From Octopus vulgaris (taxonomy: Eukaryota): a stretch of DNA of 64,000 bases. Below the pieces are notes generated by a model, which saw only the letters and a program-made list of their open reading frames with translations, made no database searches and had not been told where the DNA came from. This document shows positions 32,701-41,700 of this stretch, piece after piece. The stretch lies in NCBI GenBank assembly GCA_951406725.2, contig OX597837.1, positions 10,974,001-11,038,000 on the forward strand, in the 5' to 3' direction. Made by a program: the position numbers and the translations under genes. The stretch's first letter is position 1, and each line of letters begins with the position of its first letter.

Positions 32701-35700
32701 TTATGGAGCATGACCTTCGAACGTTGGGCCTCACGGAGGCTATGACAAAAGACCGAGACCTCTGGAGATATGCTGCGACTGCGAAGACCCAACAAATGAA
32801 GCGAGTTCATGGCTCACAGGATGGTCTCCAGTGCTTGAGGAGACCTATTGAGTCAAGTACATCAACATCAACATAAAAATCAAATGGAAATTGTAGTTAT
32901 GATACCCATGCTGGTGGCACATAAAATGCACCATCCGAACATGGCTGATGCCAGCGCCGCCTGACTGGCGTCCGTGTCGGTGACACATAAAAAGCACCGT
33001 TTGCCAGCCTCCTCTGGCCCCTGTGCCAGTGGCACGTAAAAAGCATCCACTACACTCACAGAGTGGAAGGGCATCCAACTGTAGAAACACTGCCAGATCA
33101 GATTGGAGCCTGGCACAGCCTCCTGGCTTCCCAGACCCCAGTCGAACCATCCAACCCATGCTAGAATGGAAAACGGACGTTAAACGATGATGATGATTAT
33201 ATATATATATATATATATATATATTTGTGTGTGTCTGTGTTTATATGTGTGTGGGTGTGTCCCCACAATCACTTGACAACTGATGCTGGTGTGTTTACAT
33301 CCCCTTGACTTGATTAGACTTACAGAGAATAAGTCCTGGGGTTGCTTTCTTTGATAGATTAAAAGGTGGTGCTCCAGCATGGCCGCAGTCAGATGACTGA
33401 AACAAGTAAAAGAATAAAACTGTACACTGTTAGAAAACCAGTGCAGGCACAGGAGTGGCTGTGGTAAGTAGCTTGCTTACCAACCACATGGTCCCGGGTT
33501 CAGTCCCACTGCGTGGCATCTTGGGCAAGTGTCTTCTACTATAGCCTCGGGCCGACCAAAGCCTTGTGAGTGGAATTGGTAGACGGAAACTGAAAGAAGC
33601 CCGTCATATATATGTATATATATGTATGTTTGTGTGTTTGTCCCCCTAGCATTGCTTGACAACCGATGCTGGTGTGTTTATGTCCCCGTCACTTAGCGGT
33701 TCGGCAAAAGAGACCGATAGAATAAGTACTGGGCTTACAAAAAATAAGTCCCGGGGTTGAGTTGCTCGATTAAAGGCGGTGCACCAGCATGGCCGCAGTC
33801 AAATTGACCGAAACAAGTAAAAAGAGAAAAAGAGAAAGAGTCTGTTTAAAAATGAAACTTGGCTGTTATTTCTAGCAAGTCAAGTGATCACATATTTCCA
33901 TTTTTGACTCGTTTACTAATTAATTATTTTCACTTCGTTACAGATCGTTGTCAAAGGAATGCTAGCAGACAAAAGACATGGCTCCATCGTCAACATTTCC
34001 AGTCAAGCTTCTCTGATAGCATTAAAGAATCATGGAGTATATTCCTCCACTAAGGGTGCATTGGATGCTTTAACCAGATCTATGGCCCTTGAGCTGGGCC
34101 CTCACGGTGTAAGTATGTCCTTTGATTCAAGAACCAGATGGAATTTTTGTTGCGTGGTCACACAGTTCTGTTTCAGTACCATTTACAGTAAATCCTTAAG
34201 GCACCACTCTCTCTCTCCCCTTCTGTAATGCACCAAAATATTGGGGAAATTTGGAAAGCTCACAGTATCAGGCACACGTGGCTGTGTGGTTCAGAAGCTT
34301 GGTTCCCATGTAATATTGGGTTCAGTCCCACTGCACAGTACCTTGGACCTGTGTCTGCTACCATAGCAGCCTCAGACCAACCAAAGTAGATTTGGTAGGC
34401 AGAAACTGAAAGCAGCGGCGAGCTGGCAGAAACGTTAGCACGTCGGCGAAATGCGTAGCCGTATTTTGTCCGCCGTTACGTTCTGAGTTCAAATTCCGCC
34501 GAGGTCAACTTTGCCTTTCATCCTTTCGGGGTCAATTAAATAAGTACCAGTTACGCACTGGGGTCGATATCATCATCATCGTTTAACGTCCGTTCTCCAT
34601 GCTAGCATGGGTTGGACGGTTCGACCGGGGATCTGGGAAGCCAGAAGGCTGCACCAGGCTCCAGTCTGATCTGGCAGTGTTTCTACAGCTGGATGCCCTT
34701 CCTAACGCCAACCACTCCGTGAGTGTAGTGGGTGCTTTTTACGTGCCACCTGCACAGGTGACAGGCGAGGCTGGCAACAGCCACGATCGGATTGGTGCAT
34801 TTTACGTGACACCGGCACGGAAGACAGTCGAGGCGGCATCAGCCACGATTTGAATGGTGCTTTTTACGTGCCACTATATATATACATATATATATATATA
34901 CACTAACATGCAAACATACACTCCTGAACACATACATACATACATACACACATGTTCCTGAATACTTTCATTAGATGTATGTACACATAGCGGAACATAC
35001 ACACACACACACACACACACAAATATACACATACTTCAACATATACACACACAGTCACGTATACAAACATACACTCTCCTGCACATACATAAGTATATAC
35101 ATATGTACTAAAATACCTGAACACACACACACTCCTGAATTCTTTTATTACATGTACGCATACTCACCGAGCATATGCACACACAGAGTGACAGATACTA
35201 AAATACATACTCCTGCACACACGTATATGCACATGCACTGTAATACCTGAATAGATGCATACGTACACACACATACATGCATACTCTTACATGCAAACAT
35301 ACAGACTTGAACTCTTGCACATGCATACACACCATGATAGAGGGAGAAAAGGAAGAAGTGAAAAAGAGGGCCGTTAATAGGGAGAGAGAGAGAGAGAGAG
35401 AGAGAGAGAGAGAGAGAGAAGAGAGTTAAGAATGGACAGGAGTTGAAAATGAAAAATTAAAAACAAGAATAGCAAGAACAATCACAACAACAATATTAAC
35501 GGTGACAATAACAACAAACAGGATACAGAGAAGGTGAACTCCCTCTCTGCCTCACCTTTTCAAAAGCTAGCAATGGAGGTTAAGGATAACAATGAGAATG
35601 AAAGGGAGAGGAAAGTGAGAGGAGAGACAGAGCTGGAGCAAAGGGAGCGGGAAGAGGAGAGAAGACGAAAGGAGAGGGAGGGAAAGAGACAAAAGAAAGA

Positions 35701-38700: not shown

Positions 38701-41700
38701 TCCTCATTTACTAATTAATCTTGTTTGTTGAAATCTTTTTTTGTTTTTTAAATTTCCTCATTTACTAATTAATCTTGTTTGTTAAAATCTTTTTTTGTTT
38801 TTTAAATTTCCTCATTTACTAATTAATCTTTTAAATGATTTCAGACATTAAACTATGTCCATCTAGATGTCTGTGTGTCATCATCATCATCATCGTGTAA
38901 CGTCTGCTTCCTATGCTGGCATCTGTTGGACAGTCCGATGGGAGCTGGCTGCACCAGGCTTCAGTGTCTGTTTTGGTATGGTTTTTACAGCTTTCATGTC
39001 TGTAAAATAACCAACACATTCAGCACTTACGAAATTATATATATATATATATATATATCTATATATATATATATCTATCATCATCATCATTGTTTAATGT
39101 CCGTTTTCCATGCTGGCATTGGTTGGACAATTTGACTGGAGACTGGCAAACCAGATGGCTGCACCAGGCTCCAATCTTGATCTGGCAGAGTTTCTACAGC
39201 TGGATGTCCTTCCTAACGCCAACCAATTTGAGTGTAGTGGGTGCTTTTTACATGTCACTGGTACGGGGAGCTAGTGACACTGCACTGGCATCAACCACGT
39301 TCAGACAGTAAAGGGTTAAGAATCGTTTCTCTATTATATATTTTAACCCTTTTCTTACCGTATTTATTTTGAGATGCTCTGTGTTTCTTTCAATTGATTT
39401 TAAATATAACAAAGAATTTAGTAAAATAACTTAGTTATCATTCAGCTATTGTTAGGAATATAAATTGTGACTAAAGTTTGGTGGAAGATTTTACTTCAGA
39501 ACTTATGGAAACAAGACATTTGTACTCAGAGCCGGAGCCAGTTTCAGCCGGATTGGTAACAAAAGGGTTCAAGCTGCAAGCTGGCAGAATTGTTAGCCTG
39601 TTGGATGAAATGCTTTCACCCATTCCTACGTTCTGAGTTCAAATTCCACCAAGGTTGACTTTACCTTTCATCTTTTTGGAGTCGATAAATTCAGTACCAG
39701 TTGCATACTGGAGATCGATGTAATCGACTAGCCCACCCCCTCCCCCAAATACCAGGCCTTATAATAGAAAGAATTACGATATCAAAGTATTTCTTTTTAA
39801 CTTTCCTTTCTTATATTTTCAGAAGTGGAAGATGTTGTGCATTCCATAATATTTCTCCTGAGCGACAAAGCTAACTCCACAACTGGGTCACTACATATGG
39901 TTGACGGTGGAACTCTCTGCTGCTGATAACCAAAATGAGGGAGCCACTATGTGGTTGCTCAGCATGAAAGAAACAGCAGTCAAATAGCCTTCAAATCCTG
40001 CATCGCTGTCCTGATGAAAATAAAAAAAAGAATTGTACCATTGGATAATGGATAATGAAGTCCTTAATATACACCGTGCCATGTCTGAATAAAAGACAGG
40101 ATGCTACCACCGCCAGAACTCTTTTGGTTGTGTGTTTCATCAGGGCTGACCTTGGCTAAACAACAATAAAATCGACAACCACAGAGCACAAGAAATAATG
40201 TGAGTGCTAAAACCCACAAAACCACTCCTTAGAAACCCTAGAAAAAAAAAAAAAATGCTGAGATATATAAAACAATATATTTGATAAGTGAAAATATACA
40301 GGTTTCTGATGTTTTAATCATGATTTCAACAGATTCGTGTGAGTTTTTACTGCATGAGCTGAGGGTGCAGTGCTTGCATGTTCCTGCACAGGGTACAGTT
40401 TAGTCTTTTGGGGATGTAGATCAGGATTTGGAATGAGACGATTCGGCGCAGCTCTTTGGAGAGGCTATAGCAGAAGACACTTGCCCAAGGTGCCATGCAG
40501 TGGGATTGAACCTGGAACAATGTGGTTTGTAAGCAAGCTGCTTACCACACAGCCACTCCTATCTCAATGAAAGCATGAGGTCAAACGAAATACCTTACTC
40601 TCTCTCTCTCTCTTTTACTTGTTTTAGTCATTTGACTGCGGCCATGCTGGAGCACCGCCTTTAGTCGAGCAACTTGACCCCGGGACTTATTCTTTTGTAA
40701 GCCCAGTTCTTATTCTATCAGTCTCTTTTGCCGAACCGCTAAGTAACGGGGACATAAACACACCAGCATCGGTTGTCAAGCAATGCTAGGGAGACAAACA
40801 CAGACACACAAACACACACGCACATATATATATATATACATATATACGACAGGCTTCTTTCAGTTTCCGTCTACCAAATCCACTCACAAGGCTTTGGTCG
40901 GCCCGAGGCTATAGTAGAAGACACTTGCCCAAGGTGCCATGCAGTGGGACTGAACCCGGAACCATGTGGTTGGTAAACAAGCTACTTAGCACACAGCCAC
41001 TCCTCATGGATTTATTGTAAATGGTACTGAAACAGAACTGTGTGACCACACAACAAAAATTCCATCTGGTTCTTGAATCAAAGGACATACTTACACCGTG
41101 AGGGCCCAGCTCAAGGGCCATAGATCTGGTTAAAGCATCCAATGCACCCTTAGTGCAGCAATATACTCCATGATTCTTTAATGCCATCCGAGAAACTTCA
41201 CTGGAAATGTTGACGATGGAGCCATGTCTTTTGTCTGCTAGCATTCCTTTGACAACGATCTGTAATGAAGTGAAAATAATTAATTAGTAAACGAGTCAAA
41301 AATGGAAATATGTGATCACTTGACTTGCTAGAAATAACAGCCAAATCTCATTTTAAACAGACTACTGCTCTGGTTTTCTAACAGTGTACAGTTTTATTCT
41401 TTTTACTCGTTTCAGTCATCTGACTGCGGCCATACTGGAGCACTGCCTTTTAATCAATCAAAGAAACTGACCCCAGGACTTATTTTTTGTAAGTCTGGTA
41501 CTTATTCTACTGGTCTCTTTTGCCGAACTGCTAAGTGAAGGGGATGTAAACACACCAGCATCAGTTGTCAAGTGATTGCAGGGACCCCCCTCACACACAC
41601 AAACACAGACCCAAAGACAACACACAACTATATATATATATATATATATATATATATATATATATTGGCGTTAGGAAGGGCATCCTGGCGTTAGGAAGGG

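What the first reader, a model, noticed from the sequence alone, without database searches (positions are those of the whole stretch)
33944..41259. Paralog differences concentrate in the substrate pocket
Hand count over 735 nt: 19 differences and 14 amino-acid changes (A to B): Q89M, P91A, L93V, A103T, Q137E, A138V, L140R, I141M, S150C, S151C, F190Y, V195I, R196K, G198A. Exon 5 has 6 differences, all nonsynonymous. Residues 1-88 (cofactor-binding region) and exon 7 have no amino-acid changes. The changed segments are the canonical SDR substrate-contacting ones: after NNAA, after catalytic S136, inside YxxxK, and the lid. Positions 137 and 190 have, to my recollection, been implicated in mammalian DCXR substrate recognition. 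Inference: substrate-specificity divergence, which also suggests B is or recently was functional. Overall dN/dS is only about 1; the signal is the clustering.
Basis: partly seen in the sequence, partly recalled or inferred. Interest (0 to 1): 0.72.

Follow-up and report, generated by a model that had tools for sequence, protein, structure and literature searches.

The report
Octopus enzyme twin with remodelled pocket
An octopus carries two young copies of a sugar- and carbonyl-reducing enzyme gene, one lying backwards inside an intron of the other, and their protein differences crowd into the loops around the active site, which likely means the outer copy was selected to handle a different substrate.

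Summary
The count is exact: 19 nucleotide and 14 amino-acid differences over 735 nt between DCXR (L-xylulose reductase) copy A (+, 28018-39926) and copy B (-, 50220-20648). A lies whole and inverted inside B's intron 5. The clustering is real: 13 of 14 changes fall in active-site loops (P about 1e-7; definition-free tests P 5e-4 or less). Against intron divergence (3.8%), amino-acid change runs 2.8 times faster in the loops (P=7e-4) and 11 times slower elsewhere (P=2e-4). Ten changes are derived on B, including Q137E and A138V, seen in 0 of 103 homologues. B's exon 5 is spliced in contigs of two studies, and a record named O. sinensis holds the identical B protein. Limits: the lid (exon 6) excess is not significant, and B-type exon 6 was seen in 0 of 3 covering runs; one contig joins B exon 5 to A-type exon 6. 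Exon 7 identity lies in a homogenised tract. Side-chain contacts and activity are untested. Verdict: likely positive selection on a young paralogue's active site, a known kind of event in an odd nested layout.

The parts
28018..28069 (+). Copy A exon 1 (ATG; TGxxxGxG motif begins)
   Evidence: identical to B exon 1
30047..30144 (+). Copy A exon 2
   Evidence: 2 synonymous differences from B
30975..31129 (+). Copy A exon 3 (NNAA; Q89, P91, L93)
31817..31859 (+). Copy A exon 4 (A103, N107)
33944..34108 (+). Copy A exon 5 (S136, Q137, A138, L140, I141, YSSTK 149-153); ancestral-type pocket
   Evidence: spliced A-type contigs in X6 and X10
38551..38668 (+). Copy A exon 6 (lid; F190, V195, R196, G198)
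   Evidence: A-type letters in X4, X6, X12
39823..39926 (+). Copy A exon 7 with stop
   Evidence: identical to B exon 7
50169..50220 (-). Copy B exon 1
48444..48541 (-). Copy B exon 2
47209..47363 (-). Copy B exon 3 (M89, A91, V93)
45117..45159 (-). Copy B exon 4 (T103)
41095..41259 (-). Copy B exon 5 (E137, V138, R140, M141, YCCTK); six derived changes
   Evidence: spliced B-type contigs in X4 and X6
24859..41094 (-). Copy B intron 5 (16.2 kb), which holds all of copy A on the opposite strand
   Evidence: exon coordinates
24741..24858 (-). Copy B exon 6 (Y190, I195, K196, A198)
   Evidence: present in the named protein P0004; not seen in 3 covering runs
20648..20751 (-). Copy B exon 7 with stop
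39823..40600 (+). Homogenised tract (exon 7 and 3' flank), 6 differences in 633 non-exonic columns against 4.8% in intron 6
   Evidence: gene conversion inferred, UTR constraint not excluded
40603..41004 (-). Dispersed repeat (SINE-like, label inferred) whose end marks the junction between A's 3' flank and B's intron 5
   Evidence: 90.3% to its positional counterpart 19585-19975 but 95.4% to the unrelated copy at 61108-61495

Best explanation
Copies A and B are two intact young duplicates of the octopus DCXR gene, A nested backwards in intron 5 of B, and B's active-site loops were likely reshaped by positive selection so that it likely prefers a different carbonyl substrate, while A likely keeps the ancestral L-xylulose/dicarbonyl job. 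Shown: both frames are open, the catalytic N107/S136/Y149/K153 and the cofactor motif are kept in both, changes are in excess in the loops and in deficit elsewhere, ten of the polarised changes are on B, and B's exon 5 is spliced. Inferred: the duplicate arose in one repeat-mediated inverted insertion; selection, not only relaxation, drove the loop changes; E137 (a charge in place of the family's Gln), V138, R140, M141, C150, C151 and M89 alter what fits next to Ser136/Tyr149, most likely away from L-xylulose toward other carbonyls.
For: Two copies only in G000. Introns are 3.8% diverged (198 of 5212 columns), three times the 1.22% heterozygosity given for O. vulgaris (PMC10700109), so these are not alleles. 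Loops: 14 non-synonymous differences on 133 sites, 2.8 times the intron rate (P=7e-4); residues 135-153 4.1 times (P=0.004); 84-97 3.6 times (P=0.024). Outside the loops without exon 7: 1 on 304 sites, 0.09 times (P=2e-4). Ortholog differences are not loop-biased in this way (9 of 24, 12 of 42, 18 of 57, 16 of 56). B residues A91, E137, V138, M141 and I195 occur in 0 of 103 homologues, where P91, Q137 and A138 hold 89, 99 and 97. Polarity is 10 on B, 2 on A, 2 unresolved (binomial P=0.039); tree branch B 0.045, A 0.012. [quoted passage not shown] B-type exon 5 is joined to exon 4 and an exon 6 in X4, and forms a parallel path in X6. M89 and V138 also occur in mouse lung carbonyl reductase 1CYD.
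Against: No activity data and no side-chain contact map. Whole-gene pN is 0.79 of the intron rate, and only 4 synonymous differences exist, so the neutral yardstick is intronic. Loop limits are partly post hoc. The lid segment is not significant (P=0.28). B-type exon 6 was seen in 0 of 3 covering runs (X4, X6, X12; X20 gave no cover). The single X4 contig carries B-type exon 5 next to A-type exon 6. Most single changes are conservative (BLOSUM62 0 or above at 10 of 14). H146 and W191, invariant in 103 of 103 homologues, and L143 are unchanged in B. Identity with O. sinensis over 2.5 million years is weak proof of constraint.
Confidence: 0.62

Rival explanations
1. Relaxed specificity: B keeps fold and catalysis but no longer needs to recognise a specific substrate, so pocket residues drift at the neutral rate while the scaffold stays constrained.
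For: Changes fall mostly on B and hit conserved pocket positions. The lid runs at only 1.9 times the intron rate, not significant. Counts are small.
Against: The loops as a whole exceed the intron rate 2.6-2.8 times under two loop definitions (P=0.003 and 7e-4), which drift alone does not predict. Codon 89 changed on both copies, from an inferred Leu.
Confidence: 0.17
2. Selection acted on subunit contacts or cysteine redox behaviour, not on substrate choice: B diverged so as not to form mixed tetramers with A, or gained a Cys150-Cys151 switch.
For: Residue 103 lies in helix 97-124 and 150/151 in helix 147-170 of the model; a four-helix bundle forms one SDR dimer interface (PMC2792337; which helices form it is recalled). 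B gains two adjacent cysteines.
Against: Q137, A138 and 190 are beside the catalytic Ser and at positions mutated for substrate recognition in mammals (second-hand). The long interface helices carry only 3 of the 14 changes.
Confidence: 0.12
3. The clusters are mutational or conversion artefacts: multi-nucleotide events or short tracts copied from another template, with conversion erasing differences elsewhere.
For: Conversion or a similar homogenisation is visible at exon 7 and its 3' flank (0.9%). Intronic differences are mildly clumped too (49% with a neighbour within 6 nt against 37% expected).
Against: The CDS clumping (79%) is reached by 0 of 15,897 overlapping intron windows, and no local or inverted template was found in the window. 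No third DCXR copy exists in G000. Introns 1 and 2 are 2.8% diverged and exon 2 has two synonymous differences, so the constant 5' part is not recently converted. 15 of the 17 differences inside residues 89-198 are non-synonymous.
Confidence: 0.05
4. B is a mis-assembly or a dying copy.
For: Unusual nested layout; B-type exon 6 not seen in RNA-like contigs.
Against: Identical B protein on record for a second species. B-type exon 5 with intron flank in the large run X15, and spliced in X4 and X6. Open frame, canonical splice sites and constraint outside the loops.
Confidence: 0.04

Closest known systems
DCXR / L-xylulose reductase (human 1PR9; classical SDR)
   Same: 244 residues with colinear numbering, E=2.4e-85; model TM-score 0.95, 57% identity. 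TGxxxGxG, N107, S136, YxxxK, H146 and W191 are kept in both copies.
   Different: B has E137 and V138 where 99 and 97 of 103 homologues have Q and A. It also has a paralogue nested in its own intron.
Mouse lung carbonyl reductase (1CYD; named CBR2 from recall), a diverged relative of DCXR
   Same: Shares M89 and V138 with B and departs from Gln at 137 (alignment). Its origin as a DCXR-like duplicate with changed substrate range is recalled, not read.
   Different: It also changes 143, 146 and 191 (F, L, S), which B keeps. B lies in the cephalopod clade as sister of A, so any likeness is parallel, and two residues may be chance.
Neofunctionalisation of duplicated SDR enzymes by change in the substrate-binding segments
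   Same: Scaffold and catalytic tetrad conserved, specificity set by a variable segment (PMC2792337, abstract and passages).
   Different: Caught very early (94% protein identity), so 14 changes can be tested one by one; copies are interleaved on opposite strands.

Membership tests
Classical SDR | TGxxx[AG]xG cofactor motif | tested here: met
   TGAGRGIG in A and B; motif definition from PMC2792337 Table 3
Classical SDR | Asn-Ser-Tyr-Lys tetrad, YxxxK | tested here: met
   N107, S136, Y149, K153 in both; YSSTK in A, YCCTK in B
Classical SDR | One-domain Rossmann fold of about 250 residues | tested here: met
   Model of B, pLDDT 92; best Foldseek match 1pr9_A, TM 0.95
DCXR (L-xylulose reductase) | Descent from the DCXR ortholog group | tested here: met
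   A and B are sisters (99/97) inside a cephalopod clade (98/96) of DCXR-named proteins (12 rows); the named best hits are DCXR
DCXR (L-xylulose reductase) | Substrate-recognition residues Q137, L143, H146, W191, copy A | tested here: met
   A has Q137, L143, H146, W191; positions from mutants quoted in PMC3395893
DCXR (L-xylulose reductase) | Substrate-recognition residue Q137, copy B | tested here: not met
   B has E137, 0 of 103 homologues; L143, H146 and W191 are kept
DCXR (L-xylulose reductase) | NADPH-dependent reduction of L-xylulose and alpha-dicarbonyls | not testable with these tools
   Needs enzyme assays; R39 is present in both, its NADPH role is recalled
DCXR (L-xylulose reductase) | Homotetramer | not tested
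   No complex prediction was run
Mouse lung carbonyl reductase type (1CYD) | Replacement of 143, 146 and 191 along with 137 | tested here: not met
   B keeps L143, H146, W191

The most novel reading that the evidence does not exclude
B is a new octopus carbonyl reductase that is moving, in parallel with mouse lung carbonyl reductase (M89, V138, loss of Q137), away from sugar substrates. Because A sits inverted inside B, inversion or conversion between the copies shuffles the pocket module (exons 3-5) and the lid module (exon 6), so that animals or species carry different pocket-lid combinations, as the X4 contig with B exon 5 and A-type exon 6 hints.
Probability: 0.2. Interest if true: 0.7.

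Novelty: new variant of a known kind. Interest (0 to 1): 0.47.

Why it matters
It is a compact, testable case of an enzyme changing its active site soon after duplication: 14 substitutions on a scaffold with a close solved structure, ten on one copy, several at positions the family otherwise holds almost fixed. It would point to a substrate that matters to octopuses of this group (diet, stress or metabolism; not identified). The nested inverted layout also misleads annotation: the two records for copy A lack exons 3-4 (P0003, P0034), and no full-length A protein turned up. The general process, divergence of substrate loops after duplication, is well known, so the interest is moderate.

Tried and rejected
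X20 gave no cover on exon 6. Contig depths were not used to rank expression. Three papers could not be read because they are not held: Ishikura 2003, a paper on the DCXR active-site disulfide (id recalled) and PMC5708134. Searches for DCXR pocket residues gave only the second-hand quote in PMC3395893. No structure coordinates reached the script machine, so no 3D distance test was made. A full-length copy A protein was not found in two homolog searches. NCBIfam gave only bacterial SDR models below their cut-offs. 'Exon 5 is all non-synonymous' and 'exon 7 is unchanged' were rejected as stand-alone evidence. A local template switch was sought and not found. A first intron estimate of 5.3-5.9% was dropped because its chain took in non-orthologous repeat blocks (for example 25808-26107 and 32114-32687); one search uses seven colinear blocks. 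No earlier notes of this scan were found. Not in print as far as searched: 'octopus' + 'xylulose reductase' (2 unrelated papers), DCXR/octopus/cephalopod/duplication (none of the 20 listed of 465 holds DCXR), DCXR/Cbr2/paralog/duplication (9 listed, none on this); supplements were not searched.
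Full report
What is there. The window lies at G000:C24:10974001-11038000 in a 2.8-Gb genome. Self-comparison shows a gene duplicated in inverted orientation. Copy A has seven exons on the plus strand from 28018 to 39926. Copy B has exons 1-5 on the minus strand from 50220 to 41095 and exons 6-7 at 24858-24741 and 20751-20648, so all of A lies inside B's 16.2-kb intron 5. 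Both have GT-AG introns and open 244-residue frames. DNA and protein searches of G000 find these two copies and no third (2 matches; 10 exon matches, five per copy). The B protein equals P0004, on record as L-xylulose reductase-like for Octopus vulgaris (CAI9739888.1) and O. sinensis (XP_029650570.1). Two O. vulgaris records match A but skip exons 3-4 (P0003, P0034). The closest solved structure is human L-xylulose reductase 1PR9, colinear over 244 residues (model TM 0.95).

The observation. It is exact: 19 differences in 735 nt, 14 amino-acid changes at the listed sites, two purely synonymous differences in exon 2, none in exons 1 and 7. Counting pathways gives 15 non-synonymous and 4 synonymous differences, pN/pS 1.2-1.4.

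Is the clustering more than chance? Yes. Without defining any region, 8 of the 13 gaps between changed residues are 3 or less (P=6e-5; 1.7e-4 when sites are drawn by their variability in the 103 homologues of alignment A1). With loops 84-97, 135-153, 179-205 and 241-244, which I drew from recalled SDR anatomy after seeing the data, 13 of 14 changes are inside (P=1.2e-7; 0 of 200,000 variability-weighted draws). Ordinary ortholog differences are not placed this way: 9 of 24 for O. bimaculoides, 12 of 42 for Argonauta, 18 of 57 and 16 of 56 for two unnamed cephalopod-clade proteins. A second loop set taken from the model's secondary structure holds 11 of 14 in 58 residues (P=1.2e-5). At DNA level 79% of coding differences have a neighbour within 6 nt, against 49% in introns; 0 of 15,897 overlapping intron windows reach the coding value, and no local template explains the clusters.

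Selection or drift? Seven colinear blocks give 198 differences in 5212 non-exonic columns, 3.8%. This is three times the 1.22% heterozygosity reported for O. vulgaris (PMC10700109, passages). Against that rate, the loops show 14 non-synonymous differences on 133 sites, 2.8-fold (Fisher P=7e-4), and the model-based loops 2.6-fold (P=0.003). The rest, without exon 7, shows 1 on 304 sites, 0.09-fold (P=2e-4); residues 1-88 show 0 where 6.7 are expected (P=0.002). By segment: 135-153 4.1-fold (P=0.004), 84-97 3.6-fold (P=0.024), 179-205 1.9-fold (P=0.28). So both copies have been under purifying selection since the duplication, and the two loops nearest the catalytic Ser and Tyr changed faster than neutral. 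These P values are not corrected for the choice of segments. Exon 7 must be set aside: it and its 3' flank differ at 6 of 633 non-exonic columns (0.9%) next to 4.8% in intron 6, which suggests recent conversion.

Which copy changed? With O. bimaculoides first and three further cephalopod proteins as support, ten changes are derived on B (91, 103, 137, 138, 140, 141, 150, 151, 195, 198), two on A (93, 196), and 89 and 190 are unresolved; at 89 both copies are one base from a Leu codon, and three of four outgroups have Leu (10:2, P=0.039). The tree gives A and B as sisters (99/97) with branches 0.012 and 0.045 (12 rows chosen from the 104 aligned plus A). Five B residues (A91, E137, V138, M141, I195) occur in 0 of 103 homologues; A has one such residue (F190). 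Q137 is held by 99 of 103. A text-mining paper quotes the mammalian mutants Q137M/L143F/H146L and N190V/W191S and lists Ishikura 2003 on substrate recognition (PMC3395893, passages); the original is not held, and the size of the effects is recalled only. B keeps L143, H146 and W191. Mouse lung carbonyl reductase 1CYD has M89, M137 and V138, so B matches it at two rare states; M89 is otherwise in 2 of 103 rows, both pig-family records.

Is B used? Of 24 listed runs, 11 hold at least 0.92 of the 12 sampled words of B exon 5. Four runs were laid on that exon. X4 gives one 989-nt contig with no listed difference from B inside the exon, whose loose ends read exon 4 and exon 6, so it is spliced. X6 gives parallel A-type and B-type paths between spliced flanks. 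X10 gives the A type only. X15 runs on into the intron and is B-type. Against the full B model: on B exon 6 X4, X6 and X12 all show the five A-type letters and X20 has no cover. The X4 record is the same 989-nt contig, with B-type exon 5 at 274-442 and A-type exon 6 at 443-560. Contig assembly drops short alternative paths, and the two variant clusters are 117 nt apart, beyond the word length, so this does not phase one molecule; X6 shows such collapsing, since its upstream contig is unbroken over the exon 3-4 differences. Still, B-type exon 6 was seen in 0 of 3, and a real B5-A6 form in organism B, by conversion or inversion, is open.

How the layout likely arose (inferred). B's intron 5 matches A's for about 90 nt and then enters a dispersed repeat at 41004. 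That repeat is 90.3% like its positional counterpart in B's 3' flank but 95.4% like an unrelated copy, while the flank beside it is 99% alike. This fits a repeat-mediated template switch or recombination that inserted an inverted copy of the whole gene. The other junction lies among fold-back elements at 25450-26110.

Comparison and verdict. Both copies are classical SDRs of DCXR descent (motifs as in PMC2792337, abstract and passages). A meets the DCXR pocket signature; B fails it at 137, so B is a DCXR-derived paralogue whose L-xylulose activity cannot be assumed. DCXR's two known activities, on xylitol/xylulose and on dicarbonyls, are described in PMC7243947 (passages). The best reading is positive selection on B's active site with a likely change of substrate (0.62); relaxed specificity (0.17), interface or cysteine effects (0.12), mutational artefact (0.05) and a dead or false copy (0.04) follow. 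The searches (listings only) show no paper on this duplication; supplements were not searched and may list it among expanded genes. The kind of event is well known; the example and its nested layout appear new.

Noticed in passing
window 20648-50220: B's primary transcript would contain A's whole gene in antisense, about 95% complementary to B's own exons and introns, so it could fold back into long double-stranded RNA, and the two genes are transcribed against each other. Effects on splicing, silencing or RNA editing were not tested.
   Followed up: no
window 41131: The B-type path in run X6 carries one extra letter (A to G on the coding strand, synonymous at Leu159). It may be an allele or A-to-I editing; four runs with a 0.92 word share may hold the same change. 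Needs DNA from the same animal.
   Followed up: partly
window 24741-24858 (run X4): The X4 contig joins B-type exon 5 to an A-type exon 6 with two further differences (one listed, synonymous at Pro199): assembly chimera or a real recombinant gene in organism B.
   Followed up: partly
window 39823-40600 and 19980-20751: About 800 nt of exon 7 and 3' flank are 99% alike between the copies while intron 6 is 95% alike: a likely recent gene-conversion tract.
   Followed up: partly
window 28018-39926: The public O. vulgaris models for copy A (CAI9739889.1, CAI9739890.1) skip exons 3-4, and one ends after exon 6, although the window holds a complete frame; no full-length A protein was found.
   Followed up: yes
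window 25573-25815, 26758-27306, 51170-51640: Fold-back (MITE-like) elements at the 5' flanks of both copies; A's flank 25810-26106 matches the arm 51346-51633 in the same orientation (91.6%) better than the expected arm (81.8%).
   Followed up: partly
window 51700-53500 (minus strand read): A GC-richer stretch that by eye looks like the coding part of a LINE-type retroelement; shorter similar pieces lie at 41900-42800 and 32100-32750. Not searched.
   Followed up: no
window 37585-37700: A tRNA-like head of a dispersed repeat in A's intron 5, with a further copy near 9453-9730. Not scanned.
   Followed up: no
P0041, P0052, P0071, P0142: The only other departures from Gln137 among 103 homologues are one mussel and three amphioxus proteins (Ala or Leu), which hints at repeated pocket changes in other marine lineages.
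   Followed up: no
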